From: a virus
Taxonomy: Duplodnaviria; Caudoviricetes
Strand: one strand, 5' to 3'
IMG/VR virus record: IMGVR_UViG_3300032092_000001
DNA length: 64,000 nucleotides
Part shown: in pieces, positions 214 to 52,282 of the stretch
How the letters are laid out: each line of letters opens with the position of its first letter
Position numbering within the stretch: position 1 is the stretch's first letter
Notes under the pieces: model-generated
What the model saw: the letters and a program-made list of their open reading frames with translations, nothing else
Told to the model about the DNA's origin: nothing
Database searches by the model: none
Made by a program: the position numbers and the translations under genes

Positions 214-2253
214 ATGATAGAATCCGCAGACGACAGTGCAAAAAATCCAAAAAAGGTTGAGACTTCATCCAATACTCCAGTTTTAGATAACTTTAGCCGA
301 GATTTAATAAAATTGGCTGAAGAAGGTAAATTAGACCCAGTTGTTGGTAGGGAGAATGAAATTCTAAGAATCGCTCAAATCCTTTCAAGAAGAAAGAAAA
401 ATAATCCAATTATTATTGGTGAACCTGGTTGTGGTAAAACCGCAATTGTTGAAGGCTTGGCAATGAAAATCTTTGAGGGTGATTGCCCAAGGAATCTTTT
501 AGATAAAAGAATTCTTTCATTGGAGATTAATTCAATTGTTGCTGGTACAAAATATCGCGGTCAATTTGAAGAGAGATTAAAGGTTATTTTGGAAGAAATA
601 CAATCAAACCCAAATGTAATATTATTCATTGATGAGATTCACACTATTGTAGGTGCAGGAAATGCATCAGGTTCATTAGACGCCTCAAATATTTTAAAAC
701 CAGCGTTATCAAGAGGTGAAATTCAATGTATTGGAGCAACAACTTTAGATGAGTATAAGAAACAAATTGAAAAGGACGGGGCATTAGATAGACGATTCCA
801 AAAAGTAGTAGTTAGTTCCTCAACCAAAGATGAAACCTTACAGATTTTAAAGAATGTTAAAGACAAATACGAAACTTACCATAGAGTTAGTTATCCTGAT
901 ACTATTCTTCAAATTTGTGTTGATTTGGCAGAACGTTATATCACCGACAGAGAATTTCCAGATAAAGCTTTTGATATTTTAGATGAAGTCGGAGCAAGAG
1001 CTCAAGTAGATGTTAAAAACCCTGAGATTATTGAGGACTTAAAAAAACAAGCTCAAGATATCCGTAATCAAAAATTACTTGTAGTTAAGAAGCAAAACTA
1101 CGAGGAAGCTGCGAATTTGAGGGATAAGGAAAAAAAGATTATGACTCAACTTGACACTGAGAAAAAGAAGTTTGAGCAAGAATTATTAAATAATAGAAAA
1201 GAAGTAATGGAAGATTTAGTCTATGAGGTAGTATCAACTATGACAAAAATACCTCTAACTAAATTAAGTTTGGATGATAAGAATGTTTTAATAAATCTTG
1301 AGGATGAATTATCTAAATCAGTTATCGGACAAGTAGAAGCGATTCAGAAAATTTCAAAATCAATTAGAAGAAATCGTTTAGGTATTAAAGACCCAAACAA
1401 ACCAATCGGTTCATTTATTTTCTTGGGGTCAACAGGTGTTGGTAAAACATTGTTGGCTAAGGAATTGGCAAAACAAATATTTGGAAGTGAAGATAATTTA
1501 ATCCGTGTTGACATGAGTGAATTCCAAGAGAAACATTCAGTGTCACGACTAATTGGTTCTCCTCCCGGATACGTTGGGTATGATGAGGGGGGTCAATTGA
1601 CCGAACAGGTTAAAACAAAACCATATTCAGTTGTATTATTTGATGAGGTAGAAAAGGCCCACAAAGATATTTTCTCAGCACTTCTTCAACTTTTAGATGA
1701 AGGGTATATGACCGACAGTTTTGGTAGAAAAATTAACTTCAAAAATTGTTTGATTATCATGACATCTAATTTAGGGGTTAAGAAAATGCAAGAATTTGGT
1801 AGTGGTATTGGATTTAGTAAAACTAATAACGTTTACGCAAATGAGGAGTTTAAGAAAAATATGTTAAATAAAGAACTAAAGACCCACTTCGCACCTGAGT
1901 TCATTAACCGATTAGATGAAGTCATCGTATTCAACACACTTCAAAATGAAGATGTTAAAAAAATTGTAGTGGTTGAGATGTCAAAATTAACTAAAAGATT
2001 AAATGATTTAGGTTATAAGATATTGTTTGATGAAAGTGTAATTGAATTTATCACTAAGGTTGGGTTTGATGATGTTTACGGAGCCCGTCCACTAAAGAGA
2101 GCAATTCAAGAAAAACTTGAGGACTTTATATCAGACGAAGTTCTTAGGGGAACTATCACTGAAGATAAAGAGTATCAAATATCAATTAAAGATGAATTAG
2201 TCCTAATTGATGAGATTAAGAAAAAAGTAACAAGAAAGAAAAAGGGAGAATAA
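214..2253 (+). CDS. clpC: ClpC-type Hsp100 AAA+ ATPase lacking the N-terminal Clp-repeat domain
   Basis: Two Walker A motifs (GEPGCGKT, GSTGVGKT), Walker B IDEIH and FDEVEK, short UVR-like middle coil (KQNYEEAANLRDKE), GARPLKRAIQ; only about 20 aa precede TPVLDNF. Confidence 0.9.
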   Translation: MIESADDSAKNPKKVETSSNTPVLDNFSRDLIKLAEEGKLDPVVGRENEILRIAQILSRRKKNNPIIIGEPGCGKTAIVEGLAMKIFEGDCPRNLLDKRILSLEINSIVAGTKYRGQFEERLKVILEEIQSNPNVILFIDEIHTIVGAGNASGSLDASNILKPALSRGEIQCIGATTLDEYKKQIEKDGALDRRFQKVVVSSSTKDETLQILKNVKDKYETYHRVSYPDTILQICVDLAERYITDREFPDKAFDILDEVGARAQVDVKNPEIIEDLKKQAQDIRNQKLLVVKKQNYEEAANLRDKEKKIMTQLDTEKKKFEQELLNNRKEVMEDLVYEVVSTMTKIPLTKLSLDDKNVLINLEDELSKSVIGQVEAIQKISKSIRRNRLGIKDPNKPIGSFIFLGSTGVGKTLLAKELAKQIFGSEDNLIRVDMSEFQEKHSVSRLIGSPPGYVGYDEGGQLTEQVKTKPYSVVLFDEVEKAHKDIFSALLQLLDEGYMTDSFGRKINFKNCLIIMTSNLGVKKMQEFGSGIGFSKTNNVYANEEFKKNMLNKELKTHFAPEFINRLDEVIVFNTLQNEDVKKIVVVEMSKLTKRLNDLGYKILFDESVIEFITKVGFDDVYGARPLKRAIQEKLEDFISDEVLRGTITEDKEYQISIKDELVLIDEIKKKVTRKKKGE

Positions 2254-4254: not shown

Positions 4255-4647
4255 GGGGATGTTTTTGGCTTTGACAGGAATGGATTTGTCATAAAACGCA
4301 CGTCGGGGCTAAGCTAACCCTGTAGAACTGGCTTAAATAGTAAACGGCAACGTTATCAACAAACTTTCTTCAATCGGTTTAATCCGTACTGAAGAAGTAT
4401 CTGTAGCTTAATCTAGGATTAACCTACTAGGGGTCGGCAGACATACAACCTTGCAACAGAAGTCGTAGTAGTGGTGTGGTTTCTACCCAAAAAGAAACAA
4501 GTGGAGGATTAGTTCTCAGTAAACCGAACCACTATAAAATAAGGGAATTGTGAAGTTTCGGATTGTTTAGAAAAACAATGACCTAAGCGTGTAGTGTTTT
4601 ATGGTAGACATTTTTGGACCCGGGTTCGACCCCCGGCATCTCCACCA
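4255..4647 (+). ncRNA. ssrA: tmRNA
   Basis: 5' GGGGATG pairs with 3' CATCTCC-ACCA including the G3.U Ala determinant; T-arm CCGGGTTCGACCCCCGG; internal tag frame; followed by terminator. Confidence 0.93.
4346..4411 (+). other. tmRNA tag reading frame (A)GNVINKLSSIGLIRTEEVSVA*
   Basis: Resume codon inferred as GGC after TAAAC; open to TAA at 4409-4411. Confidence 0.7.
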
Positions 4648-24115: not shown

Positions 24116-25834
24116 TTAACTTATATTATAATTACCATTAAGATACATTTCCGCTTCAGAATTTCTTCTGTTAACTAATCCCTGTAATCCTAATGTTTTA
24201 AAATTTCTAATCTGTTCCGCAGCCCTTTTATGGTCTCCTTTCTTAACTGACTGAATGAAGTCAGATTGTCTAACCCCACCACATCCAGCATTAAACGCTA
24301 ATGACACTAATGCGTCAAATTGACCCTGAGTTATCATATAACTTTTAAGTCCTTTTGATTTCCATTCAGATAAAAAATTCCTAACACAGTCCGCAAACTC
24401 TTTAGCATCATTGTATAGTAATTTTAAAGCCCTTGTTTCATCTATAGTCATTCCCATTCTAACATCATCACCAGTGTGACCCCATCCAATAGTTGCAACA
24501 CCAACGCTGTCTTTATATGCTTGTAATGCCGGCTTGCCCTTTAATTTTGCCAATCCCTCGGCGTACTTAATATGGTCCCAAAAATCCTGACTAACTTTCA
24601 TTTTAGTACCATCTTGTAAATTACTTTCCTCAGGTACGTCTACAGGTTTTACAATTGGTTGTGGTTTATCATACTTTGTCATAGTACTATCCGACGCTGC
24701 GGTAATATCAGGCATTTTTATTTTTTGCTCATTAACTTCAGGTTTCAATACCGTCATGGACTCAGGAAATTCTTTACTTAAAAATTCTCTGTTTTTACCC
24801 TTATATGGAATATTTTGTAAAACGTATCTAATTGCATTTAAACCTGATACTCTCTTATCATTGGCATCCAATATTACCCAAGGGTGATTAACCGTTGAGG
24901 TTTTGTCAAATAATTTTTGTTTAAACTCTGAGAATCGGTCCCACATGTCTTGCATTTTCTCGTCATTAGGGGAGTATTTCCAATACTTTAATGGTGACGC
25001 TTGTCTCATCTGAAATCTAGTTGCCTGAGTCTCCTTATCAATTGAGAACCATAATTTAAACAAATAATCTCCATCTTTAACTAAGTCTTTTTCAAAGTCT
25101 TCAACGTTTTCCATAAAGTCTTCATATTCCTCTGGAGAACCGTATCCCATCACTGGTTCAACAAGTCCTCTATTATACCAACTTCTATCAAAGAAATTAA
25201 TCATTCCTTTTCTAATTTGACTTCTATATCTATCCCACCATGCTTTTCTCTCCTCAGGTGTTGGTATTCCCAATGCAATGATGTTGTAATATCTTGGATT
25301 TAAATTCTCAGTGTACTTTTTAATAGTTGAACCCTTACCCGCAGAATCTCTACCCTCAAAAACAATTATGACAGTTTTACCGGTACTTTTAATCCACTCT
25401 TGCATTTTAAGTAACTCAACTTGTAAATGATATAACTCCTCGTTATAAACTTTCTTTTTAATTAATGAAGGTTCTTGTGGTTCAAATGAAAACTCTTCAA
25501 AATCAGGTTCGTTACTTATGAAATCTTCTTTTTTTCTTTTCTTTAATACCTTTATAATATTTTCAAAATACTTGGTAATGTTTTTTTCTTTATTACCTTT
25601 TTTCATTAAAACATTTCTAACATTTCTCTCAAGTAAGTCAAAATTAATGGTTTGATTAAAACCCATATCCATAATATCATACAATAGAATCTCAAGGTTC
25701 TTTGTGTAGATATTATATTGTTTTAGAATATCCGCAATCTCATTCTCATATTGTTCTGTCGGTTTCTCCTCTTCGTTTAATTGAGTTCCGAGTAATTGTT
25801 TGTATCTGCTGATTTCAGAAATTAATTTTTTCAT
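24116..25834 (-). CDS. ppk2: Fusion: leader + polyphosphate kinase 2 + GH24 (phage lysozyme)
   Basis: PPK2: LQVEL.K.Q, FEGRDSAGKG, FDRSWYNR, KLWFSI; GH24: AEG...AYKDSVGVATIGWGHT, QFDALVS.AFN.G, GL.NRR..E; single uninterrupted frame. Confidence 0.85.
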   Translation of the reverse strand: MKKLISEISRYKQLLGTQLNEEEKPTEQYENEIADILKQYNIYTKNLEILLYDIMDMGFNQTINFDLLERNVRNVLMKKGNKEKNITKYFENIIKVLKKRKKEDFISNEPDFEEFSFEPQEPSLIKKKVYNEELYHLQVELLKMQEWIKSTGKTVIIVFEGRDSAGKGSTIKKYTENLNPRYYNIIALGIPTPEERKAWWDRYRSQIRKGMINFFDRSWYNRGLVEPVMGYGSPEEYEDFMENVEDFEKDLVKDGDYLFKLWFSIDKETQATRFQMRQASPLKYWKYSPNDEKMQDMWDRFSEFKQKLFDKTSTVNHPWVILDANDKRVSGLNAIRYVLQNIPYKGKNREFLSKEFPESMTVLKPEVNEQKIKMPDITAASDSTMTKYDKPQPIVKPVDVPEESNLQDGTKMKVSQDFWDHIKYAEGLAKLKGKPALQAYKDSVGVATIGWGHTGDDVRMGMTIDETRALKLLYNDAKEFADCVRNFLSEWKSKGLKSYMITQGQFDALVSLAFNAGCGGVRQSDFIQSVKKGDHKRAAEQIRNFKTLGLQGLVNRRNSEAEMYLNGNYNIS

Positions 25835-41753: not shown

Positions 41754-42032
41754 ATGAAATACATTATCACAGAATCACAGTTAGATACATTTTTACTTAG
41801 GAGGTTTACAATGGATGAATTGGAATCACTTAGGGATGATTATAACTATATTATGGATGACGAAGATTTTGAAGACTCTGCCGATAGAGATGACTACGCT
41901 TATGAACTACTTGAAAAGTTCATTGATAGACATAGAAGTGAGGAGTTTTTACAATATGATAATGACACTGAATTCTATGAAAACCGTGCCGATTATATTA
42001 GGGCGTTACTTAAATTCTTACATTCTAATTAA
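41754..42032 (+). CDS. ITESQ-leader acidic protein
   Basis: MKYIITESQ; TATTTAT at 41741. Confidence 0.75.
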   Translation: MKYIITESQLDTFLLRRFTMDELESLRDDYNYIMDDEDFEDSADRDDYAYELLEKFIDRHRSEEFLQYDNDTEFYENRADYIRALLKFLHSN

Positions 42033-42048
42033 TTAATATTTATATATA

Positions 42049-42402
42049 ATGAAATACCTTATCACCGAATCACAAATTGATAGAGTAGTGTCCATATACT
42101 TGAATAATCAGGACTTTGTGATATATGACAACAAGAAGAAATTCAATAATTATATATATTTCTTAAACAGTGAGTCAGATAGGGAATCGCAGATTAGTGT
42201 TTATACTAACAACGCTTTTGGTGAAGTTAGGAATTGGGTGTTTGTAAATTCTGATTTGATTGAGGAATTATCTACCTTCTTCTCCATAGATAGATTGGAT
42301 TGTTTGAATATAATCAAAATGTGGGTTAATAATACTTTGGGTATTAGTGATAGTACGATTTGGGATGGTCCATATGATTACAGATTAATGGTTAACGAAT
42401 AA
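42049..42402 (+). CDS. ITESQ-YLDNQDF family paralogue 1
   Basis: MKYLITESQID...YLNNQDF...WVNNTL. Confidence 0.8.
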   Translation: MKYLITESQIDRVVSIYLNNQDFVIYDNKKKFNNYIYFLNSESDRESQISVYTNNAFGEVRNWVFVNSDLIEELSTFFSIDRLDCLNIIKMWVNNTLGISDSTIWDGPYDYRLMVNE

Positions 42403-42812
42403 TGAAAGTAATAATCACTGAAAGTCAAGGTAAGAAAACTCTTAAACCATTATTGGCGAAATTTGGTATGCGTACTCTGTGTAAAATGACAGGTAAGTCA
42501 GTTAAAGATGTTATTAATGAAGCAGGTATTAAGGGAACTAAAGAAGATATTATCTTTCTAACAAAAACTATAATTGAGAATGACCTCTCATCCGTCTTAA
42601 CATATTGTAATTATAATATCATACCCACTCAGTACTCTATGGATTTGGTTGTCTATATACCTAAGCCGGCTCCTGAAAATGTGGGAAGGTATATGTTTGA
42701 CCAAGGTACAAGGAATGTGTATAGAGATGCTATCTCCGAGGCTTTATATAAATTAGGTGGCGGTTTAATTAAAGGTCATAATATTGAGGTTCATAATACA
42801 GGTAACTGTTAA
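42402..42812 (+). CDS. ITESQ-leader protein
   Basis: MKVIITESQ. Confidence 0.75.
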   Translation: MKVIITESQGKKTLKPLLAKFGMRTLCKMTGKSVKDVINEAGIKGTKEDIIFLTKTIIENDLSSVLTYCNYNIIPTQYSMDLVVYIPKPAPENVGRYMFDQGTRNVYRDAISEALYKLGGGLIKGHNIEVHNTGNC

Positions 42813-42828
42813 CTAATATTTATATATA

Positions 42829-43161
42829 GTGAAATATCTTATAACCGAATCACAGATAGACAAAGTAATCTTTAGGTACTTGGACAATCAGGACTTTATT
42901 CCAATAGAAAAGGGTGATAATATATACTTTGTAAATTCAGAAGGAGATGAATATGCTCAAATCAGATATGATAAAGATGATGGTTGGTGTTATATATCTT
43001 GGAAGTTAGTTAATGAAATTTATTCTTTCTTTTCTTTGGAAGAATATGATTCCGAACAAGTTATTGGTAGGTGGGTTGAGAATACCCTACAGATGAGGGT
43101 CACTGACACCGTGCCCATTTTTAATCCGGATAATCCTTCGTTGATAATACCCTCTAACTAA
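42829..43161 (+). CDS. ITESQ-YLDNQDF family paralogue 2 (GTG start)
   Basis: MKYLITESQIDKVIFRYLDNQDF...WVENTL...IPSN. Confidence 0.8.
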   Translation: MKYLITESQIDKVIFRYLDNQDFIPIEKGDNIYFVNSEGDEYAQIRYDKDDGWCYISWKLVNEIYSFFSLEEYDSEQVIGRWVENTLQMRVTDTVPIFNPDNPSLIIPSN

Positions 43162-43873
43162 TAGTAATAATCTTCCACTCCCCATTGTAATCTTCCACAA
43201 GACAAGTGGAGTTCTCACAAAAATCACCTGAATTCATATAGTCATTCTCTAACTTCGGATGATGAATATGTCCACACACCGCAACATCATATCCCTTCTG
43301 TTTCGTTAACCCTTTTGCGTTTTCCTCAAAATCAGATACAAAGTTAATTGCCCCTTTAACAGATTGCTTTATTGTGTTTGCCAGTGAATGATATGGTAAG
43401 TTAAACCACTTTCTTATTTTGTTGTATAGGGTATTAAACTTAATGACAATATCATATGACCATCCACCAATTACTGCTAACCATCTTGCTTCCATTATAA
43501 CGAAATCCAACACATCCCCGTGAAAACAAAAGTATGTTCTCCCATCTATTCCTTCGTGCACATATTTCCTCACAATCCTTATATTGTTTAACTTAAACGG
43601 AATGAAATCTTTTAGGAAGTCATCGTGGTTTCCCCTTATATAAATCACCTTTGTGTCCTTCTCTGACATCTTCATAAACTTCCTGAATATCTTGGTGCAA
43701 TCCTTTGTCCATTTACCATTCCCCTTTAATGCCCAACCATCTATTATATCTCCGTTTAATATTAACTTATCCGCTTGGTTTTCCTCTATGAACTTTATTA
43801 TCTTATCCGTTTGTGATTGTCTTGCACCCAAATGTAAATCACTCATTATGATTGTTCTGTATCTCATTTCCAA
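43154..43873 (-). CDS. Calcineurin-like metallophosphoesterase, UDP-2,3-diacylglucosamine hydrolase (LpxH)-like
   Basis: SDLHLG, GDIIDG, GNHD, HGD, GHIH, NSGDF. Confidence 0.8.
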   Translation of the reverse strand: MEMRYRTIIMSDLHLGARQSQTDKIIKFIEENQADKLILNGDIIDGWALKGNGKWTKDCTKIFRKFMKMSEKDTKVIYIRGNHDDFLKDFIPFKLNNIRIVRKYVHEGIDGRTYFCFHGDVLDFVIMEARWLAVIGGWSYDIVIKFNTLYNKIRKWFNLPYHSLANTIKQSVKGAINFVSDFEENAKGLTKQKGYDVAVCGHIHHPKLENDYMNSGDFCENSTCLVEDYNGEWKIITIS

Positions 43874-44568
43874 TATGAATTATGGTTGGAAAAATATCCC
43901 TTGTTATTTCTGTTGAAGAATGACTGTATCATTAACTTTGTCATATACCATAATCCCTTATTCTCAAATCTTCTTGGTAATGTGAATATGGTTTTCCTAT
44001 ATACCTTGAACTTATTTGTCTTTATCTGCTTTGATAGTAAGTAATCCTCCGCAACCTTTGCTTCTTCATCAAATCCATTTAGTGAATTGAATGTAGATTT
44101 CCTTATTAACATAAATCCACCGAGACAGAATGGTGTAATATATCTTGTTATTCCCTGAATTAAATCAAATGTCCTAAATACATAATTGTATTTTCCATTT
44201 GTTGTTCTTACCTTTGTTGTCAGTAAATCCAACCTTTCTTTTGTCATCATATACATGCACTCTTGTAACAAGTTTGTGTCAAGTATCATCATGTCCGCAT
44301 CCATAAACAATACAAACGGAGTTTCAGCTCGTTCTGCCCCGTTATTTCTTGCTTTGCTAGGTAATCCACCCTGAATGATGTCAAGATTGAAATAATCCCT
44401 GTTTCTGTTCTCCAAATGGTATGTTGTTCCATCATCCGATGAGTCGGAAACAATAACCTTAACTCCGTCAATACCATTTTGGAAATTTAATAGTGTTATA
44501 GTTTGATTGATAGTTATCCCCTCGTTCTTACAAGGTATAACAATGGTTAATAACTTTGATAGTTCCAT
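43864..44568 (-). CDS. Glycosyltransferase family 2
   Basis: IVIPCKNE, VSDSSDDGT, ARN.GA, FMDAD, GGFMLI..GFDE...EDY. Confidence 0.85.
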   Translation of the reverse strand: MELSKLLTIVIPCKNEGITINQTITLLNFQNGIDGVKVIVSDSSDDGTTYHLENRNRDYFNLDIIQGGLPSKARNNGAERAETPFVLFMDADMMILDTNLLQECMYMMTKERLDLLTTKVRTTNGKYNYVFRTFDLIQGITRYITPFCLGGFMLIRKSTFNSLNGFDEEAKVAEDYLLSKQIKTNKFKVYRKTIFTLPRRFENKGLWYMTKLMIQSFFNRNNKGYFSNHNSYWK

Positions 44569-44677
44569 TTATATAAGTATTGGAAGTAAAGACCAAACCA
44601 TATTATCATATTCTTATGAAATTATTAACTCAATATGTATAGTTCAATTTTATACTTATCTTTGTATTTATTATCAT

Positions 44678-44995
44678 ATGAAGATTGAGAATAAAGTTAA
44701 TGCAATTGTAAAACTAATTAATACATTATACTCACCTGACGAGATTAAAGTTAGAAAGAGTGAATATGATGATGAGATATTAATTGATGTTTACTTTTCT
44801 CATATTGATGATTCATATATAACCAACTCTGACTATTATGACCTTAAAAAATTAAAACAACAAAATTTTGAGGGTGAGATTAGAAGGACGATACAGGACT
44901 TCTTGAGTATTAAAACAAGCGGATTAAACCCACATACAGGTTTCTCCCCATACGAGGTTCACGGTATAACAATAGACGTAAGATTAACTAAATGA
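44678..44995 (+). CDS. Hypothetical protein
   Basis: Start MKIENKV after TATCTTTG and TATTTAT. Confidence 0.7.
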   Translation: MKIENKVNAIVKLINTLYSPDEIKVRKSEYDDEILIDVYFSHIDDSYITNSDYYDLKKLKQQNFEGEIRRTIQDFLSIKTSGLNPHTGFSPYEVHGITIDVRLTK

Positions 44996-45321
44996 AATAC
45001 CTTATAACAGAATCACAAATAGATAGAATAATCTTTAGGTATCTTGACAATCAGGACTTTATTCTTGTTGGTAATGGTCTCAGTTTATTTTTTATTAATT
45101 CTGAGGGTGATGAATCAGCTCAAATTAGATATAATAAAGATGATGGTTGGTGTTATATAAACCACGATTTAATTAGGGAGATTACCTCCTTCTTTTCTAT
45201 CAAATCATATGAAGCTGAAAAGATTATCAGTAAATGGGTTGAATATGTTTTGGAGATGGAAGTTACTAACATCGGTAAACCTGGATATGTGACCTCAAAC
45301 ACACTATACTATTCTATATGA
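44992..45321 (+). CDS. ITESQ-YLDNQDF family paralogue 3
   Basis: MKYLITESQIDRIIFRYLDNQDF. Confidence 0.8.
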   Translation: MKYLITESQIDRIIFRYLDNQDFILVGNGLSLFFINSEGDESAQIRYNKDDGWCYINHDLIREITSFFSIKSYEAEKIISKWVEYVLEMEVTNIGKPGYVTSNTLYYSI

Positions 45322-45629
45322 AATACCTTATAACAGAATCACAATTTGACAAAGTAATATTTAGATACTTAGACAATCAAGATTTTATTCAGATAGAAAA
45401 AGGAAATAAAATATACTTTGTAAATTCAGAAGGGGATGAATATGCTCAAATCAGATATGATAAAGAATATGGTTGGTGTTATATACATTACAAGTTAGTT
45501 GATGAAATTTCTACCTTCTTTTCTTTGGTACGAGATGATTCTAAAGAAGTTATTGGTAGATGGGTTGAGAATACCATCCAGATGAGGGTCACTCACACCA
45601 TAATATGGGTATATATCCAGGTGGAATAG
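45318..45629 (+). CDS. ITESQ-YLDNQDF family paralogue 4
   Basis: Near-copy of 42829; TAG stop lies at the end of a 30-nt spacer-like insert. Confidence 0.8.
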   Translation: MKYLITESQFDKVIFRYLDNQDFIQIEKGNKIYFVNSEGDEYAQIRYDKEYGWCYIHYKLVDEISTFFSLVRDDSKEVIGRWVENTIQMRVTHTIIWVYIQVE

Positions 45630-45663
45630 GTTGAGAATACCCTCTAACTAATATTTATATATA

Positions 45664-45996
45664 ATGAAATACCTTATAACAGAATCACAATTAGATAAAG
45701 TAATCTTTAAATACTTAGATAATCAGGACTTCATTCAGATTGAGAAGGGTGATGGTGTATACTTTGTAAATTCAGAAGGTGATGAATATGCTCAGATTAG
45801 ATATTTTAAAAAGGATAACAAATGTGTCATATATACAGGATTAATTGATGAGGTATCTTCTTTCTTTTCTATGCAAGGTTATGATGCTAGAGAAACTATA
45901 GGTAGATGGGTTGAGGAGACCTTAAAGGTAGATATTGATTATTGTTTGTGGGCATATAACATTAAATCTGAGTGGATGCAGATTCCGTCTAATTAA
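45664..45996 (+). CDS. ITESQ-YLDNQDF family paralogue 5
   Basis: MKYLITESQLDKVIFKYLDNQDF...IPSN. Confidence 0.8.
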   Translation: MKYLITESQLDKVIFKYLDNQDFIQIEKGDGVYFVNSEGDEYAQIRYFKKDNKCVIYTGLIDEVSSFFSMQGYDARETIGRWVEETLKVDIDYCLWAYNIKSEWMQIPSN

Positions 45997-46009
45997 TATT
46001 TATAATAAC

Positions 46010-46366
46010 ATGAAAGTATTAGTCACCGAATCTAAATTAAAAACATTTATTAAGAACAAATTAAATATTGACTTCACAGGCCGTGTGGAGCTTGACCCGA
46101 GCATATATAAAATACTGAATGATTTTGATTTCTATTTTACTTACGATGGTTTACGAAGAAGACAATTAGGTGATAACTATGGTCCGATGTATCTGATAGA
46201 ATTGGATGATAATCATAAGGTATTATATCAAATGAATTATAGTTCAAACCACCCATTGATTCTTGATAATAGAGGTGATGGATATGAAGAGTCCGACTTT
46301 ATGAATTTACTTGGTATCTCCGCTCTTGGGATAACATTAGAACAATTCCTTGACCTATACATATGA
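46010..46366 (+). CDS. VTES-leader protein
   Basis: Start MKVLVTESKL after TATTTAT. Confidence 0.7.
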   Translation: MKVLVTESKLKTFIKNKLNIDFTGRVELDPSIYKILNDFDFYFTYDGLRRRQLGDNYGPMYLIELDDNHKVLYQMNYSSNHPLILDNRGDGYEESDFMNLLGISALGITLEQFLDLYI

Positions 46367-46662
46367 AATACATTATAACAGAATCACGATTTGATAAAGC
46401 AGTATTTAAGTATTTGGATAATCAGGACTTTATTAAGGTTAACAAAAAAGAAAACATATTCTTTCTTAATTCTTCAGATGATAAATTATCGGATGCTCAA
46501 ATCGCATATGTTAAAACTGATGGTGAGTGTTACATAAAATATGAATTAATGGTAGAGATTTCTGATTTTTTTTCTATTGATGTATATGAGGTCAATAAAA
46601 TCATTGGTAGATGGTTTGAAGATACTCAACAAAGAAGAGTATCATCAATCCATTGGGTGTAA
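46363..46662 (+). CDS. ITESQ-YLDNQDF family paralogue 6
   Basis: MKYIITESRFDKAVFKYLDNQDF. Confidence 0.8.
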   Translation: MKYIITESRFDKAVFKYLDNQDFIKVNKKENIFFLNSSDDKLSDAQIAYVKTDGECYIKYELMVEISDFFSIDVYEVNKIIGRWFEDTQQRRVSSIHWV

Positions 46663-46674
46663 TATTTATTCTAT

Positions 46675-47046
46675 ATGAAATATATTATCACAGAATCACA
46701 ACATAAGTTAATCACCGAGCTTGAAAGAACTTGGAGAAATGTTGAGTATACTGAACAATATGAGAAACTTAAACATAAACTTGTTCCTTATTTTGAGAAG
46801 TTGGTTGACTCATATGATGAAAGTGAATTTAGAATTGGTTTATTTGATTCTGAAGGAAAACTAATGATGTTGTATATAAAACAAAGTGGTGAATTATATT
46901 ATAGTAGACACCTTGATAATATGTATGGTGACGCTTTTCCTCATCCCATTTGGCAAGTCCACGGCGATTTCATTCTATCAGATGTATTTAACATATACTT
47001 CCCCGACTATGAAGTTAAATCAGTTAAAAGTGTAACATTCTCATGA
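46675..47046 (+). CDS. ITESQ-leader protein, distant family member
   Basis: MKYIITESQHKLITE. Confidence 0.75.
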   Translation: MKYIITESQHKLITELERTWRNVEYTEQYEKLKHKLVPYFEKLVDSYDESEFRIGLFDSEGKLMMLYIKQSGELYYSRHLDNMYGDAFPHPIWQVHGDFILSDVFNIYFPDYEVKSVKSVTFS

Positions 47047-47384
47047 AATACCTAATCACCGAATCACAACGAGATAAAGCCGTATTCAAATACTTGGATA
47101 ATCAAGATTTTGAAATATCTAAAATTGGTGCCAGTACATACTTTAAACACCCTGATGATGACGGGTTTGCTCAAATTAAATATGGTGGTAATCACGCTAA
47201 TAATGAATTGTGTTTTATCTATATAGATTTAATTAAAGAAATTTCTTCCTTCTTTTCTCTTAACGATTATCAATCTACCAGAGCTGTTGGACAATGGGTT
47301 AAGAAAACCCTGAACTTGGAGGGTCAAATGTCCAACAAGATAATGCAACTCAAATCGTCATTAAAAATACCAACTGAATATTAA
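47043..47384 (+). CDS. ITESQ-YLDNQDF family paralogue 7
   Basis: MKYLITESQRDKAVFKYLDNQDF...WVKKTL...IPTE. Confidence 0.8.
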   Translation: MKYLITESQRDKAVFKYLDNQDFEISKIGASTYFKHPDDDGFAQIKYGGNHANNELCFIYIDLIKEISSFFSLNDYQSTRAVGQWVKKTLNLEGQMSNKIMQLKSSLKIPTEY

Positions 47385-47420
47385 TTTGTAGTTCCACAAT
47401 TTTTGTCGTATCTTTGGCTT

Positions 47421-48020
47421 ATGGTAACAGATAAGATAAAACAATACATATTCAAACGTCTATACAAAGAGTTAGGTAATGCGGAAATAATTCCATACAA
47501 TAATTCCATATGGTTTATTGATAGAAATGAAAGGTATTGGTATTTTGAACTTGAAAATAACGGAAATCTTTATTGGAGATATAATTATTTTACAAATTTT
47601 TTCTCTTGGTTCTCTTTGGAACCTAATCAGTTTGAACCAATTATATCTGAATGGGTGGAAGAGGTATTAAATCATAAGGTATCCACAACAGGAAACCAAG
47701 GCCATGATAGCGGATTCTGGGTGGAAGATGTATTAAATCATAAGGTATCTACAACCGTCCCCTACTTGACCATTGACAATGTCCAGGTGGAAAAGGTATT
47801 AAATCATAAGGTATCTACAACATGGTCAGGTCACTCAACCCAACCAAATATGGTGGAACAGGTCTTAAATCATAAGGTATCAACAACTATTCCTGTGAAT
47901 TTGGGAATGGGTCAGCGGGTGAAATATGTCTTAAATCGTAAGGTAGAAACAACAAAAAGCTTTGGAGCTCCCAAGCACTTTCAGGTGGATAAGGTATTAA
48001 ATGAAAACCCCACTGAGTAG
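47421..48020 (+). CDS. Divergent family member without the ITESQ leader, carrying an in-frame 22-aa repeat array
   Basis: Start MVTDKIK after TATCTTTG; VE.VLNHKVSTT five times plus a partial copy, separated by unrelated 10-mers. Confidence 0.75.
   Translation: MVTDKIKQYIFKRLYKELGNAEIIPYNNSIWFIDRNERYWYFELENNGNLYWRYNYFTNFFSWFSLEPNQFEPIISEWVEEVLNHKVSTTGNQGHDSGFWVEDVLNHKVSTTVPYLTIDNVQVEKVLNHKVSTTWSGHSTQPNMVEQVLNHKVSTTIPVNLGMGQRVKYVLNRKVETTKSFGAPKHFQVDKVLNENPTE
47654..48002. CRISPR. CRISPR-like array inside a CDS: 5 full 36-nt repeats, 1 partial repeat, 5 unique 30-nt spacers
   Basis: Consensus GGTGGAANAGGTATTAAATCATAAGGTATCNACAAC at 47654, 47720, 47786, 47852, 47918 and partial at 47984; exact 66-nt period; no cas genes in window; repeats degenerate. 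Confidence 0.5.
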
Positions 48021-48069
48021 CGAATTCAATGGGGTTAATGTAGCCTAAACTACAGCGGTCCTAAGCCCG
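48006..48069 (+). ncRNA. Twister-ribozyme-like core (incomplete match)
   Basis: TAATGTAGC (48036) and CGGTCCTAAGCCCG (48056-48069) match twister conserved blocks; hairpin AACCCCA/TGGGGTT; the P2-GA-T1 strand was not found. Confidence 0.3.
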
Positions 48070-48096
48070 TTTCTTTAATGTTTTTATAGGTCCATA

Positions 48097-48510
48097 TTAA
48101 TTACTCTTCCCTGTTCCTTTATGTATTAATCTTAAACAATCAGGTGATATGTTATCAAATGTAACTATATGGTGTTTGTAGTCACCACCCTCAAAATGTC
48201 TATCTTTATACCAAGTAACACCCGCACATTCTGTATTAATTACCCATATATCATCGTCGTAAGTTGAATCAAACATTTGTTTCTTATCAAATGAATCTGT
48301 CGCAAATATAGATGGTTTACATTCCACATCACCTCCCACATGTTGTTGGTAACAATCCCCCACATACGTTTGTAAACCTGTAAGTTCTATGTTCTCTCTC
48401 CATATAGGGTTTGATTTGTGAACTACAAATTTACCAGGTGTATATTCATCTCCTGATGGAGAATATATTTCTTCCCTTAATATTCTTCTTATTGTTTCTT
48501 GTAGGTTCAT
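48097..48510 (-). CDS. LQE-leader protein with ADP-ribosyltransferase-like fold
   Basis: HKS...NI..TGL...IFAT...IWVI...I.P..L pattern of H-x-S/T ART (Tpt1/DarT-like) families. Confidence 0.45.
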   Translation of the reverse strand: MNLQETIRRILREEIYSPSGDEYTPGKFVVHKSNPIWRENIELTGLQTYVGDCYQQHVGGDVECKPSIFATDSFDKKQMFDSTYDDDIWVINTECAGVTWYKDRHFEGGDYKHHIVTFDNISPDCLRLIHKGTGKSN

Positions 48511-48511
48511 A

Positions 48512-49039
48512 TTACATACTTTTTTTAATCCTGTCTCCAACTTTTTGAAAGAACTCTAATAAATTTTCTTCAAGTTCTTCATTAAATTCTACATAGTCAT
48601 CACCATCGTGTAAGTCAAATGAATGAACGTTATAGTCCTCATCAGTATACATTGTTACATAATATTCTTCACCATCAATAAAGAATTCACCAATATGTTT
48701 ATATTCAACTGGGTCTTCGTCCCACTCTTGGGTTTCGTTATAAATGAATTTTACATCATAATCATCAACAATATCATTAAATTCGTAACCTGAATCAATA
48801 CTCACAATATCTTCCAATTCGTTGTCAGTAATATCTTGTGATTTATTATGTAAATATTTTTTTTCGGCCTTGGTTAATGACTCCATTCCGAATTGATTAA
48901 TTTTATCTAAAATACGATTGGTTAATTCATCATTTTCATTGATGACCCCCATCATTGATTTTATTCTTGATATTTGTTCTTGTAGTTTCATATTAGTCTC
49001 CTCTTTAAGTATTCTTCTTATGTGTTCTTGTAGGTCCAT
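48512..49039 (-). CDS. Protein with double leader and DUF6576-like helix pair
   Basis: MDLQEHIRRILKEE then MKLQEQISRIKSMMGVINE; RILDKINQFGMESLTKAEKKYL. Confidence 0.65.
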   Translation of the reverse strand: MDLQEHIRRILKEETNMKLQEQISRIKSMMGVINENDELTNRILDKINQFGMESLTKAEKKYLHNKSQDITDNELEDIVSIDSGYEFNDIVDDYDVKFIYNETQEWDEDPVEYKHIGEFFIDGEEYYVTMYTDEDYNVHSFDLHDGDDYVEFNEELEENLLEFFQKVGDRIKKSM

Positions 49040-49040
49040 A

Positions 49041-49913
49041 TTATTCGGAATATAAATAAAAAAAGAATTTAAATGGGAAATAACTTGTGATAGTTGAACC
49101 AATTTCTTTAATAAAGTTTTGTTTTACCTTATTAAAATTTTTGGGGTTATCTATTGCGAATTGTCTATCATAAAATATATGAACGTTATAACCTCCAATC
49201 CTTTCATCATATTCAAACTCAACACGTTTAACTGCCGGTATTTCAAGTGTGTTAATTAAACGTGCAGCTTTCTTTTCAAAATATTCTCTTTTACTTTCAG
49301 TTTCTTCCCTTAATACTCTAACAATACTTTCTCTCATAGGACTGTAACCCATATTGTCATCTAACCTATCATCCATATCTTGTCGTAGTTTAGGTAAAAA
49401 ATTATCCATTATAATTTCATATACACTTGGTAAATAAACTTTTTCATACCAACTAAGTAAATCATCCACATTACTAAAACCCTCAACTTCGTCAAGTTGT
49501 TCGTAGTAATCTCCACCTCCTTCAATCTCAGCAATAAGGGTATCATTAGAGGTATCAACCAACGAATACCAATCAGTTTCAACAGGAGTCCACGTCATAC
49601 CATCCCAAAAAGGAGTCGCCATTACCCATACTGTTTCAACCATATTAGGTAAGAAGTGTTCCCCATAAAATTTACCTTCCCAATAAACAACACCATCAGA
49701 ACTTGTTGAAATCTTAAATTCTTTATATTCTGTCGGTAAATTTCCGTTATTAATATTTTCAATTATTATTTCATTAGCCAACCCAATATTAGATTCAATT
49801 CTCATCCCAACCATTTTCACAAGTTTGGTTAATGGAATACCCAAAGCTTCTTTGGTTTTCCAAAGACCTAACTCATCAATTAACTTTAATATTTTATCTC
49901 TTCCTTTAGTCAT
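49041..49913 (-). CDS. Two-domain hypothetical protein
   Basis: Internal MRESIVRVLREE leader-like junction. Confidence 0.7.
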   Translation of the reverse strand: MTKGRDKILKLIDELGLWKTKEALGIPLTKLVKMVGMRIESNIGLANEIIIENINNGNLPTEYKEFKISTSSDGVVYWEGKFYGEHFLPNMVETVWVMATPFWDGMTWTPVETDWYSLVDTSNDTLIAEIEGGGDYYEQLDEVEGFSNVDDLLSWYEKVYLPSVYEIIMDNFLPKLRQDMDDRLDDNMGYSPMRESIVRVLREETESKREYFEKKAARLINTLEIPAVKRVEFEYDERIGGYNVHIFYDRQFAIDNPKNFNKVKQNFIKEIGSTITSYFPFKFFFYLYSE

Positions 49914-50967
49914 TATTACTTAATCTTTTTATTTCAGCATTACGAAGTTTCTTTAAATACATATCTTCAATATACCCAGGTTCATTACCTTCATATCTTA
50001 ATAAATCATTTCTTTTAAACAAAGTTCCTTTCATAATAAACTCAATCATCTCATCTTGAGTAACTCCTTCAGGTATTTCAGTAACTGGTGGGACACATAC
50101 ATCAACTCTGTCTGTAAATGATAATTCATCAATAGATATATCATCCCTACCCATTTCATTTATTACATTATCAAAAAAATTATCTTCAAACCATTCTTCA
50201 ATTAAGTAAATAAGATAATTTTTTCTAATAGGTATATAGTTTAATATATCATTAACAAACTCTTTGGGTATAGATAAAAATGACTCCATGAATTTTCTTT
50301 CAGATGTTGGTCTTCGGTCATCAGTTTCTTCAAAAAACAATGCTAAATTCATCATTTTTTTACCATTTTTACAAAACTCAATATCGTGTCTTGTTTTATA
50401 ACTTTCAGTGTGATACATATTCATATCTGAAAAAATCTTATTCAACCTATCTAATATAAGTTTTTCAGTTTTCTCATTTGGTTTCAAGAATTTCCTACTT
50501 ACTTCTTCTTGTAATACTTGTCTAATATGTTCTTTCAAAAAATTATTCTCATTCATATCTTCTTTCTTTTTTGTTTCAACTGGTTTGACTTTGAACCAAC
50601 TAAATGATAAATATTTTGGGTATTTACCTCCGTGTATTGAATTGAATACCGATAATAGTATTTCTTTAAGTGTGTCAAGCCAACCGTCATTTATACCAAC
50701 CAAATCTCCAAAAGTGTATTCATCATAATCAGTTCCAAATTCAGGTACTGGTGAGTAATCATTGTATTTTCTCCATTGTTCACCTATCCAATCAGCATCA
50801 ACATAAATGTCACCATCCATATACAAATAATTCATGTTGTCATTTAATCCAGCACGAAATATTTCAATACCTTCAAACCACCAAGGGAAATTTTGGGATA
50901 GTTTCTTATTCAATACTTTATTGAATATTTTTAATTGTGGTTCGGTTAAATTAAGTGACTCTTTCAT
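49906..50967 (-). CDS. Two-domain hypothetical protein
   Basis: LNLTEPQL N-terminus; internal LKEHIRQVLQEE junction. Confidence 0.7.
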   Translation of the reverse strand: MKESLNLTEPQLKIFNKVLNKKLSQNFPWWFEGIEIFRAGLNDNMNYLYMDGDIYVDADWIGEQWRKYNDYSPVPEFGTDYDEYTFGDLVGINDGWLDTLKEILLSVFNSIHGGKYPKYLSFSWFKVKPVETKKKEDMNENNFLKEHIRQVLQEEVSRKFLKPNEKTEKLILDRLNKIFSDMNMYHTESYKTRHDIEFCKNGKKMMNLALFFEETDDRRPTSERKFMESFLSIPKEFVNDILNYIPIRKNYLIYLIEEWFEDNFFDNVINEMGRDDISIDELSFTDRVDVCVPPVTEIPEGVTQDEMIEFIMKGTLFKRNDLLRYEGNEPGYIEDMYLKKLRNAEIKRLSNND

Positions 50968-50978
50968 TGTATAATTCT

Positions 50979-52196
50979 TCAATCTTCTTTATGTATACCT
51001 TTATAATATACATCATATAATACTATTTCATATAAATTATTAAATATGTATTCAGGTAATTCCGAGTAGGCCAAGTTTATAAGTCCGAGATATTTTCTAT
51101 CATTATCAAATCTTTCTCCTGTTATACCACCCTCACCAAAATACTGAATTTCGTAATTCCTATTCCCATTGTTAGTCTTAACGCTATACATTAAAGACAA
51201 CATCTTATCACCACTAACATAATCACTTAACCATTGTGATACCACATGTTCGGCAGTATCATCTAAGAATTGGTATTTAACACCTTTAGGTAGTGCGTCT
51301 AAATCAAACTTCCTTCCTAATTGATATGGACTTAAATTAGACATATCTAAGAAATTAAATAGTCCTTGTTTTTCAATAAGTTTTAATGCCTTACTCTCAC
51401 TTTCTTGAAGAGGTTTCTTTTTCTCTTCATACCACCATTTACTTTTGTTATACGACTCAAGTGTTTCAGTATTGAAACTAATTCCAGCTTTGAATTCAGG
51501 AAAGAATTCACGAATAACAGACCTAACATTACTCAAAGTATTATGAAATCTATCTGACTCTTCACCTGAAAACGAACCTTTCATTAAAACGGTAACATGA
51601 CATTGTGTTCCATAATCAGTATTGTAGATATTAACCTCAACGTCGTGGAAATTATCAGTAAGAATACTTTTATCAAATCTTGCTTTAACAAATGATGCGA
51701 CTATTTTTTCTAATTTACTATTACTATCCATAGAGCGAATTGACTCATCATTACTTTCACTAATAGTCGTGTCTTTAGGAGTAATTGCAAAATAAACGTT
51801 GAAGCCGGCTATTTTAGTATTCAATCCAAGTTTTGTCTCAAGTATATCTTCTAACCTGTGTTCAAATGTATAGATATCCGCAGTTTCAAATAATTCCTTT
51901 GGTAATTTGTGATAAACTTGTATACCATAATATATATAGAAATTATTAACCTCATCATAATCACTACGACTTTCCCTGAAATACTTATTTAGTTCAGGTT
52001 TTAACTTAATGATAACTCTACCTTCCAATGCATCACCAACTACCTCAATACCATTAACTCCGTAGACCGAATCTAAATAGGGATAATCTTTAATCAGTTT
52101 TTGAGCGTCTTTTACAATAACTTTTTCAAGTCCTGTAAAGTCACCAGTCTTCACCTCTCGTGATTCGGTCAAAACTTTCCTGATTAATTCTTTCAT
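50979..52196 (-). CDS. Three-domain hypothetical protein
   Basis: MKELIRKVLTES; internal TISES and PLQES junctions. Confidence 0.7.
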   Translation of the reverse strand: MKELIRKVLTESREVKTGDFTGLEKVIVKDAQKLIKDYPYLDSVYGVNGIEVVGDALEGRVIIKLKPELNKYFRESRSDYDEVNNFYIYYGIQVYHKLPKELFETADIYTFEHRLEDILETKLGLNTKIAGFNVYFAITPKDTTISESNDESIRSMDSNSKLEKIVASFVKARFDKSILTDNFHDVEVNIYNTDYGTQCHVTVLMKGSFSGEESDRFHNTLSNVRSVIREFFPEFKAGISFNTETLESYNKSKWWYEEKKKPLQESESKALKLIEKQGLFNFLDMSNLSPYQLGRKFDLDALPKGVKYQFLDDTAEHVVSQWLSDYVSGDKMLSLMYSVKTNNGNRNYEIQYFGEGGITGERFDNDRKYLGLINLAYSELPEYIFNNLYEIVLYDVYYKGIHKED

Positions 52197-52282
52197 ACTT
52201 AATAAATATATCATTTTTCATTTGATTTGGAAGTTTAAATTGTATACATTTGTAATGTAAAATCTAAATAACAATATAAACT

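What the first reader, a model, noticed from the sequence alone, without database searches (positions are those of the whole stretch)
42325..47384. Repeat-spacer-partial-repeat units at the 3' ends of the paralogue family, with a covarying hairpin
Seen: after the conserved Trp codon each paralogue has a 36-nt block, then a variable stretch, then a partial second copy. 43075-43110 GTTGAGAATACCCTACAGATGAGGGTCACTGACACC is followed by 29 nt and GTTGATAATACCC. 45564-45599 is followed by 30 nt and GTTGAGAATACCC. 42325-42360 is followed by 30 nt and GTTAAC. Degenerate versions lie at 45910 and 47298. The central stem is kept with different bases: ACCCT/AGGGT (43084, 47307), TAATAC/GTATTA (42330), GATACTC/GAGTATC (46621), ACCT/AGGT (45919). 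The variable stretch encodes each paralogue's unique C-terminal peptide, and at 45627 it supplies the stop codon. Known (from memory): Cas13b direct repeats are 36 nt, begin GTTG, and carry a CCCT/AGGG-type stem. Inference: the long array at 47654 is the expanded form of one mechanism that diversifies the C-termini of the whole family, or these are single-spacer mini-arrays.
Basis: partly seen in the sequence, partly recalled or inferred. Interest (0 to 1): 0.85.

Follow-up and report, generated by a model that had tools for sequence, protein, structure and literature searches.

The report
CRISPR-like mini-arrays ending phage genes
Small genes of a giant lake phage end in a 36-base repeat, a 29-31-base unique insert and a cut-off second repeat, built like a one-spacer CRISPR array, and related phages carry up to five such repeats, so new DNA seems to be added to gene ends much as bacteria add CRISPR spacers.

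Summary
The repeat-insert-partial-repeat units at 43075 and 45564 are real and far beyond chance. In 31 related IMG/VR loci the same 36-nt repeat (GTTGAGAATACCCTMCAAATGARGGTYACAAACACC) recurs with 47 unrelated inserts of 29, 30 or 31 nt. Up to four full repeats plus a truncated last repeat occur, and these arrays run out of frame past the stop codon. Inserts are at chance identity (0.27) where flanks are 80-95% identical.

The units at 45910 and 47298 are old, conserved versions. The unit at 42325 is not supported. The covarying hairpin is not supported.

The in-frame array at 47654 grows at its gene-proximal end like a CRISPR array. Both repeats resemble published Flavobacterium type VI-B repeats (20-25 of 36, shuffle p<1e-4). 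The first also matches a Cas12f-like mini-array repeat in a Flavobacteriaceae MAG (72-78%).

Five related phage genomes hold no Cas1, reverse transcriptase or TnpB, and no source of any insert was found.

Best reading: orphan CRISPR-type arrays seeded on a coding block, extended by a host Cas1-Cas2-like ruler (about 0.45). Other agents of this scan already reported the translated arrays on other genomes. The out-of-frame mini-arrays are the addition here.

The parts
42829..43161 (+). Paralogue gene (110 aa, MKYLITESQ...WVENTLQMRVTDT-VPIFNPDNPS-LIIPSN*) whose 3' end is a class A unit
   Evidence: ORF; family alignments; AlphaFold2 model with pLDDT 93
43075..43110 (+). Class A 36-nt repeat, full copy (codes VENTLQMRVTDT after the invariant Trp)
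43111..43139 (+). 29-nt unique insert (spacer); no match elsewhere in 0.9 Mb of held loci
43140..43161 (+). Truncated terminal repeat GTTGATAATACCCTCT plus AACTAA. It is read one base out of frame as LIIPSN*, and it has stop codons in all three frames.
   Evidence: (family D10)
45318..45629 (+). Paralogue gene (103 aa) ending inside its spacer
45564..45599 (+). Class A 36-nt repeat, full copy; its first 17 nt are identical to the repeat of the Flavobacteriaceae MAG mini-arrays (L086)
45600..45629 (+). 30-nt unique insert that supplies the TAG stop (45627-45629)
45630..45650 (+). Truncated terminal repeat GTTGAGAATACCCTCTAAC, lying in frame (VENTL*) but after the stop
45910..45996 (+). Degenerate fossil unit: block, 29-nt segment and GATGCAGATTCCGTCTAATTAA (MQIPSN*), period 65; the segment is conserved in the orthologue L001 8441
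   Evidence: (D10)
47298..47384 (+). Degenerate fossil unit (period 62; second copy ATTAAAAATACC at 47360, read as LKIPTEY*); alignable with orthologues
42325..42402 (+). Homologous block without a real second copy (GTTAAC only); not a unit
47421..48020 (+). Divergent family member carrying the class B array; a Bacteroidota-type TAnnTTTG element (TATCTTTG, 47409-47416) ends 4 nt before its ATG
47654..48020 (+). Class B array: five 36-nt repeats plus a truncated sixth, five 30-nt spacers, exact 66-nt period, read in frame

Best explanation
The 3' ends of one subfamily of a multicopy phage gene family are orphan CRISPR-type repeat-spacer arrays, most often reduced to one spacer. The 36 nt that code the last conserved residues (V-E-N-T-L-Q-M-K/R-V-T-x-T after an invariant Trp) act as the first repeat. 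It is followed by an unrelated 29-31-nt insert and then by another full repeat or a last repeat cut to about 12-16 nt. That last repeat, with the TAACTAA behind it, stops translation in all three frames (VENT(L)*, LRIPSN*, or xGT-TGA).

Shown: the architecture; its expansion to five repeats in relatives, including parts outside any reading frame; wholesale replacement of inserts next to conserved flanks; nucleotide-level conservation of the repeat; and polar growth and decay in the sister array at 47654.

Inferred: new inserts are added at the gene-proximal repeat with duplication of that repeat. The enzyme would have a 36/30 ruler, most likely the Cas1-Cas2 of a Bacteroidota host acting in trans. 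In Flavobacterium columnare the type II-C Cas1 serves the type VI-B array in this way, and the phage lineage holds no such enzyme itself.

The changed C-terminal peptide is then a consequence. It is filtered for frame and stops only where downstream protein matters, as in the 47654 array. Whether the transcripts serve as decoys or guides for a host Cas protein is open.
For: Class A units: 47 distinct units in 31 loci plus the window, with periods of 65 (21 units), 66 (14), 67 (10) and 62 (2). There are arrays of 3-5 repeats in L004, L005, L025, L068 and L024, with the ORF ending in the second repeat or in the spacer. Insert identity is 0.26-0.27 (chance) where the upstream 120 nt are 70-95% identical and the downstream 25 nt are 62-77% identical. 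Insert GC is 40.6% against 32% for the genome, with A about equal to T and G about equal to C.

Repeat synonymous sites are fixed: GTT 100%, AAT 98% and ACC 88% in a 32% GC genome.

Class B array: all 237 periods measured are 66 nt, and the spacers are unrelated to one another. The base before each repeat is G in 97% of copies, whatever the amino acid. Only the 3' spacer is shared in 141 array pairs, against 51 sharing only the 5' spacer, and shared spacers are colinear in 677 of 701 pairs. Differences between neighbouring repeats rise from 2.2 at the 5' end to about 6 at the 3' end, and each spacer travels with its flanking repeat variants.

Populations: one lake metagenome holds many alternative spacers between the same repeats.

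Similarity to real CRISPR repeats: 20-25 of 36 to the published Flavobacterium VI-B repeats of PMC5395568, with shuffle p<1e-4, but not to the II-C repeat. Identity is 72-78% to a 36-nt repeat with 30-nt spacers beside a Cas12u3/Cas12f-like gene in a Flavobacteriaceae MAG.

In trans use of II-C Cas1 by a VI-B array with 36-bp repeats is published (PMC8092290). No Cas1, reverse transcriptase or TnpB was found in five related phage genomes, three of them complete.
Against: No protospacer was found anywhere. The searches covered 0.9 Mb of related loci, five whole related genomes including the array's own, 401 Flavobacteriaceae genomes (noise only), and exact scans of IMG/VR and JGI metagenomes for five spacers.

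No host repeat above 78% identity was found, and no class B array was found in 185,579 species genomes. No Rfam CRISPR-DR family matches.

The repeat is homologous to a coding motif present in all family members, including those without arrays, so it arose in a gene and was not captured from a host array. Neighbouring repeats are often not identical (R1 equals R2 in 13 of 46 class B arrays; about half of class A arrays). This is unusual for an actively growing CRISPR array and fits recombination of units. Frame +1 (period 65, keeping LRIPSN) is over-represented, and in-frame stops in first spacers are half as frequent as in the other frames (9 vs 20-21 of 47), so protein-level selection also acts. 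The host is not identified.
Confidence: 0.45

Rival explanations
1. The cassettes are made by a still unknown, non-Cas process of the phage itself, such as template-independent or templated insertion coupled to repeat duplication. That process would serve to diversify the C-terminal loop or tail of packaged or early proteins, and the CRISPR geometry would be convergent.
For: No cas gene in five related genomes and no protospacer found. The class B array is strictly in frame, with an in-frame stop in 1 of 140 spacers against 41 and 81 in the other frames. The LRIPSN frame is preferred in single units and the tail is modelled confidently. The spacer peptides have the composition of random sequence. 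The repeat derives from a coding motif.
Against: No candidate enzyme was seen. The 36/30 geometry, the polar growth with 3' decay and the significant similarity to Flavobacterium repeats would all be coincidences. Class A arrays continue untranslated past the stop codon with periods of 65-67, which a protein-directed process does not need.
Confidence: 0.25
2. Ordinary gene-family evolution explains the pattern. A poorly constrained C-terminal tail diverges fast, the second copy is a frameshifted relic of one old duplication, and unequal recombination between paralogues and phages at the conserved block shuffles tails and occasionally concatenates them.
For: The units at 45910 and 47298 behave as normal coding sequence with conserved tails. 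Some spacers are inherited with 1-4 point changes. Second repeats often equal the family consensus rather than their own first repeat, as recombination would give. Many tandem paralogues offer partners.
Against: Recombination cannot create the hundreds of unrelated inserts: 47 class A, 140 class B in the loci, and 270 clusters among 120 proteins. Divergence would not hold insert length at 29-31 nt, would leave intermediate identities (the Hamming distribution is bimodal), and would not raise GC to 41-43% with strand parity.
Confidence: 0.12
3. The repeat-like gene ends are RNA decoys (Racr-like solitary repeat units) that mimic the host's CRISPR repeat and soak up a Cas protein. The inserts are by-products of the host adaptation machinery mistaking the mimics for an array.
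For: Viral solitary repeats and mini-arrays that mimic host repeats are known (PMC10651486, seen). About ten copies lie in tandem in the window. There is similarity to VI-B and Cas12f-type repeats of Flavobacteriaceae. Spacers without any target fit inert decoys.
Against: Identity to any real repeat is only 56-78%. The hairpin that defines VI-B repeats is not conserved. The elements lie inside ORFs without promoters of their own. This reading shares its insertion step with the best explanation, so it is a view on function rather than a separate origin.
Confidence: 0.15

Closest known systems
Type VI-B CRISPR arrays of Flavobacterium (F. columnare CRISPR-2, F. branchiophilum; PMC5395568 Table 4), filled in trans by type II-C Cas1 (PMC8092290)
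   Same: 36-nt repeat and 29-31-nt spacers. GTTG start, ACC/CCCT...AGG core, and ...ATCTACAAC end in class B. 20-25 of 36 identical positions. Growth at one end and decay of distal repeats. No adaptation genes next to the array.
   Different: The first repeat is coding sequence of a phage gene. The arrays sit in a phage with no cas genes. The defining hairpin and the CAAC end are not kept in class A. Identity is far below that within a repeat family. No protospacers are known. One array is translated throughout.
Virus-borne orphan mini-CRISPR arrays and solitary repeat units (Racr RNAs, PMC10651486; mini-arrays of archaeal viruses, PMC7099407; review PMC11656645)
   Same: One or a few repeat-spacer units in a viral genome without cas genes, thought to depend on host Cas proteins.
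   Different: The known cases are non-coding, match the host repeat closely, and their spacers target rival viruses. Here the repeat is the end of an ORF present in about ten tandem paralogues, the match to any known repeat is loose, and no targets were found.
Mini-arrays beside a Cas12u3/Cas12f-like gene in a mobile element of an uncultured Flavobacteriaceae MAG (CAZBXQ010000008.1; locus L086)
   Same: The repeat GTTGAGAATACCATCCAAAATGTGGTCGCTCCCAAC is 36 nt with 30-nt spacers and 2-3 repeats per array. It is 26-28 of 36 identical to class A, with the first 12-17 nt identical.
   Different: These arrays lie next to an effector gene and a conserved 70-nt scaffold and are non-coding. Their polarity relative to the shared 12-mer is opposite to that in the phage. 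The first 12 nt of the match were imposed by the search pattern.
Spontaneous neo-CRISPR arrays from off-target Cas1-Cas2 integration at repeat-like sites (recalled from memory, Nivala et al. 2018; not checked here)
   Same: Spacer insertion with duplication of a pseudo-repeat outside a canonical array, which can lie inside genes.
   Different: That was seen in laboratory E. coli as rare events. Here the arrays are conserved, widespread and evolving in a natural phage lineage.

Membership tests
CRISPR array (generic) | Several near-identical direct repeats of 23-47 nt separated by unique spacers of constant length | tested here: met
   Met at the level of the element family: up to four full plus one truncated 36-nt repeat, with spacers of 29-31 nt. 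The window's own units hold one full and one 13-16-nt repeat only.
CRISPR array (generic) | Spacers derive from foreign DNA (protospacers exist) | tested here: inconclusive
   None was found. The searches were exact or covered small samples. GC of 41-43% with strand parity suggests a non-phage origin.
CRISPR array (generic) | Cognate cas genes in the same genome or a matching system in the host | tested here: not met
   No Cas1, TnpB/Cas12 or reverse transcriptase in five related phage genomes. The host is unknown, and the best host-side repeat is 72-78% identical.
CRISPR array (generic) | Polar growth at a leader end and degenerate distal repeat | tested here: met
   Class B: 3' spacers are shared 141 times against 51 for 5' spacers, and repeat decay runs from 5' to 3'. 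Class A: truncated last repeat and more divergent distal repeats in L004.
CRISPR array (generic) | Non-coding, transcribed and processed into crRNAs | not testable with these tools
   The first repeat is coding, and class B is translated. Only contigs of a metatranscriptome were available, which cannot show processing.
Type VI-B (Cas13b) repeat family | 36-nt repeat with 30-nt spacers | tested here: met
Type VI-B (Cas13b) repeat family | GTTG...CAAC ends and a conserved internal CCC/GGG stem | tested here: not met
   Class A ends in CACC, and its central pair is C.A in 19 of 43 variants without significant covariation. Class B starts with GGTG and has no internal stem. The family-wide fold test is negative.
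Type VI-B (Cas13b) repeat family | Sequence similarity to known members | tested here: inconclusive
   20-25 of 36 identical to F. columnare and F. branchiophilum repeats, with shuffle p<1e-4. This is real similarity but below family level. No Rfam DR match.
RNA anti-CRISPR / solitary repeat unit | Close mimic of the host's repeat, expressed as a small non-coding RNA | tested here: inconclusive
   The host repeat is unknown. The elements lie inside ORFs, and no promoter of their own stands out.
Diversity-generating retroelement | Reverse transcriptase plus a template/variable repeat pair differing at adenines | tested here: not met
   No RVT_1 in five related genomes. The inserts are wholly unrelated to one another.

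The most novel reading that the evidence does not exclude
A phage lineage uses CRISPR-style spacer integration, by host Cas1-Cas2 or an unknown enzyme, on repeats that are part of its own coding genes. Captured or random 30-nt DNA pieces would become new peptide cassettes at protein C-termini, giving a heritable insertional way of diversifying proteins that are possibly packaged and injected.
Probability: 0.3. Interest if true: 0.95.

Novelty: new variant of a known kind. Interest (0 to 1): 0.8.

Why it matters
If host adaptation enzymes write spacers into repeat-like ends of phage genes, CRISPR adaptation has a second, unrecognised target. Phages would then carry a living record of it. It would also be a new route by which proteins gain wholly new peptide segments.

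The out-of-frame class A arrays show that the process works on DNA and does not depend on translation. That narrows the mechanism for the translated arrays seen elsewhere in this scan.

The system is directly testable in Flavobacterium columnare, where in trans adaptation is established. Array-detection pipelines that discard repeats inside ORFs would miss this class.

Tried and rejected
- **Hairpin covariation:** rejected. The stems lie in different registers. The MFE of the block is no better than controls. Pair counts on 43 repeat variants show a mostly mismatched central pair.
- **Rfam CRISPR-DR families:** no match even at E<=10.
- **Known families for the proteins:** no match in Pfam or PHROGs. 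No PDB fold relative for the AlphaFold2 model (Foldseek best E 0.19; VIA best Z 4.5).
- **INPHARED phages:** no DNA match.
- **Phage-encoded machinery:** Cas1, RVT_1 and TnpB are all absent from five related genomes.
- **Protospacer hunts:** local BLAST; whole related genomes; 401 Flavobacteriaceae genomes (only noise in AT-rich gene parts); exact scans of IMG/VR (only the array itself) and JGI metagenomes.
- **Class B arrays in 185,579 species genomes:** none.
- **Mismatch-tolerant scan for class B junctions in 401 Flavobacteriaceae genomes:** hits equal to the reversed-pattern control, so uninformative.
- **Homologues of the MAG Cas12f-like gene in 17 other Flavobacteriaceae genomes:** they carry no arrays, so they gave no further repeats to compare.
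- **tmRNA tag as a host clue:** the tag is atypical and uninformative.


Full report
**Setting.** The window is 32% GC, has no whole genome held and no relative in INPHARED. It carries a tmRNA and a tRNA-Arg. Its relatives in IMG/VR are contigs of 220-322 kb, three of them rated complete, so this is a jumbo phage of lakes (run labels). Between 41.7 and 48.0 kb lie about twelve tandem small genes that start MKY(L/I)ITESQ. Seven share a roughly 100-aa body ending in an invariant Trp followed by V-E-x-x-L. An eighth, more distant member (47421-48020) carries the 66-nt-period array at 47654. The family has no Pfam or PHROG match. An AlphaFold2 model of the 42829 protein is confident (pLDDT 93) but has no solved fold relative.

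**Check of the observation.** The two best units are exactly as described. The first is 43075-43110, then 29 nt, then GTTGATAATACCC at 43140. The second is 45564-45599, then 30 nt including the TAG stop at 45627, then GTTGAGAATACCC at 45630. The spacings of 65 and 66 nt equal the period of the large array.

The other items are weaker. The units at 45910 and 47298 have degenerate second copies (periods 65 and 62), and their variable parts are conserved in orthologues. At 42325 there is only a 6-nt GTTAAC. At 46621 there is no second copy.

**The same unit in relatives.** I anchored on the 36-mer in 83 related loci and found 47 distinct units. The repeat consensus is GTTGAGAATACCCTMCAAATGARGGTYACAAACACC. 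The inserts are 29 nt (21 units), 30 nt (14), 31 nt (10) or 26 nt (2).

Several phages have true arrays:
- L004 has four full repeats and a truncated fifth (periods 67, 66, 66, 66).
- L005, L025, L068 and L024 have three repeats.
- L007, L010 and L013 have two full repeats.

Where the first period is 67, the ORF ends at the TGA inside the second repeat and the rest of the array lies outside the reading frame. Where it is 66, the tail ends VENT(L)*. Where it is 65, the tail reads LRIPSN*. Some ORFs stop inside the insert. The last repeat is regularly cut after 12-16 nt and followed by TAACTAA, giving stops in all three frames.

So the length of the insert is set at the DNA level and not by the reading frame.

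**Are the inserts alignable?** No. For pairs of units whose upstream 120 nt are 80-95% identical, and whose downstream 25 nt are 62-77% identical, insert identity is 0.21-0.27, which is chance. Only near-identical loci, with upstream identity of at least 95%, share inserts. A few inherited inserts differ by 1-4 bases. It does apply to the fossil units at 45910 and 47298.

The inserts have 40.6% GC against 32% for the genomes, with A about equal to T and G about equal to C. In-frame stops occur in 9 of 47, against 20-21 in the other frames. Translation of the first insert is therefore under some selection but is not required.

**The hairpin.** Over 84 family genes the block is no more stable than other windows of the same genes or shuffles. 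Within 43 variants of the class A repeat, the stem 10-14/22-26 is paired in 80% of cells against 27-61% for slid partners. However, its central pair is C.A in 19 variants, and there is no significant compensatory change. I treat the hairpin as unsupported.

**The sister array.** The repeat of 47654 (GGTGGAAGAGGTATTAAATCATAAGGTATCYACAAC, class B) codes VEEVLNHKVSTT, which is homologous to VENTLQMKVTNT. The protein has 614 homologues, with lengths differing mostly by steps of about 22 residues, and their arrays are mosaics of shared and unique 10-residue cassettes.

In 39 loci every period measured is 66 nt, and other gaps are multiples of three. Of 140 unique spacers one has an in-frame stop, against 41 and 81 in the other frames, so this array is translated. 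Spacers are unrelated to each other.

The constraint on the repeat is on nucleotides. Synonymous sites are fixed across distant phages, and the base before the repeat is G in 97% of copies whatever the codon.

Arrays behave like CRISPR arrays in four respects:
- Shared spacers are colinear in 677 of 701 array pairs.
- Only the 3' spacer is shared in 141 pairs, against 51 sharing only the 5' spacer.
- Neighbouring repeats differ by 2.2 bases at the gene-proximal end, rising to about 6 at the distal end.
- A spacer keeps its flanking repeat variants when it occurs in another array.

One lake metagenome holds many alternative spacers between the same repeats. A riverine metatranscriptome holds a repeat-spacer-repeat contig, which does not prove transcription. 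Other agents of this scan reported these translated arrays on other genomes.

**Relation to real CRISPR systems.** The published repeats of F. columnare and F. branchiophilum (PMC5395568) are 36 nt with 29-30-nt spacers. Class B shares 24 of 36 positions with the F. columnare VI-B repeat, including the last 12. Class A shares 20-25 of 36 with the two VI-B repeats. Shuffling gives p<1e-4, whereas the II-C repeat gives 9-17 of 36.

A scan of 185,579 species genomes for two class A 12-mers at array spacing found five places. One is a 73-kb contig of an uncultured Flavobacteriaceae MAG. It holds four mini-arrays of a 36-nt repeat with 30-nt spacers, 26-28 of 36 identical to class A. These lie beside a 390-aa Cas12u3/Cas12f-like gene (PADLOC E 9e-48) in what looks like a conjugative element. 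A Bacteroidales MAG has a related repeat.

The promoter-like TATCTTTG that ends 4 nt before the ATG of the array gene fits the Bacteroidota TAnnTTTG element. That consensus is recalled from my own knowledge, and the lead came from note e1-5340859. A Bacteroidota host, perhaps a Flavobacteriaceae, is therefore likely but not shown.

In F. columnare the VI-B array, which has no cas1, is filled by the II-C Cas1, and both have 36-bp repeats (PMC8092290).

**What is missing.**
- Five related phage genomes have no Cas1, reverse transcriptase or TnpB.
- No class B array exists in the species genomes.
- No Rfam DR family matches.
- No protospacer was found in related loci, in whole related genomes including the array's own, in 401 Flavobacteriaceae genomes, or by exact scans of IMG/VR and JGI metagenomes.
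- Neighbouring repeats are often not identical, which points to age or to recombination of units.
- The repeat is clearly derived from a coding motif shared by members without arrays.

**Verdict.** The units are real DNA-level repeat-spacer cassettes, with confidence about 0.85. Two in the window are canonical, two are fossils and one is spurious. They are the short form of arrays that reach five repeats in relatives.

The best mechanism is CRISPR-type integration at a repeat-like gene end by a host 36/30 ruler enzyme (0.45). The rivals are an unknown phage process (0.25), ordinary divergence plus recombination (0.12), and a decoy role that shares the insertion step (0.15).

The hairpin claim and a family-wide diversification role are not supported.

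Noticed in passing
window 4255-4647: A full-length tmRNA gene (Rfam 134.7 bits) in the phage. ARAGORN missed it. The apparent tag, GNVINKLSSIGLIRTEEVSVA*, is unusually long and atypical.
   Followed up: partly
window 24116-25834 (-): A single 572-aa ORF joining a polyphosphate kinase 2 domain to a phage lysozyme domain (Pfam 5.7e-71 and 5e-30).
   Followed up: no
window 214-2253 (+): A ClpB-like two-AAA-domain ATPase (AAA_2, AAA_lid_9, ClpB_D2-small) encoded by the phage.
   Followed up: no
L086 3400-6500 (= G006:C8:35.6-38.4 kb), uncultured Flavobacteriaceae MAG: Four mini-CRISPR arrays (2-3 repeats each). Each abuts the same conserved sequence of about 70 nt (a possible tracr-like scaffold). 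They cluster around one Cas12u3/Cas12f-like gene inside a conjugative-element-like region with Toprim-methylase-helicase, RadC, Fic and DUF3853 genes. Seventeen homologues of that gene in other Flavobacteriaceae genomes have no arrays.
   Followed up: partly
window 41754-47046 and 48097-52214: Otherwise unrelated small proteins share short N-terminal tags (MKY(L/I)ITESQ; M.LQE.IRRIL(K/R)EE). The tagged paralogues are preceded by TATTTAT-type motifs, whereas the array gene at 47421 lacks the tag and has a TAnnTTTG element.
   Followed up: partly
window 43154-44568 (-): A metallophosphoesterase gene and a family 2 glycosyltransferase gene are inserted on the opposite strand in the middle of the paralogue cluster. 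The phosphoesterase stop codon abuts the truncated repeat at 43140-43161, so its 3' UTR would be antisense to the class A unit.
   Followed up: no
window 48006-48040 and 48054-48080: A hairpin (AAAACCCCA...TGGGGTT) and a terminator-like site directly follow the class B array. The array is therefore probably the 3' end of its transcript.
   Followed up: no
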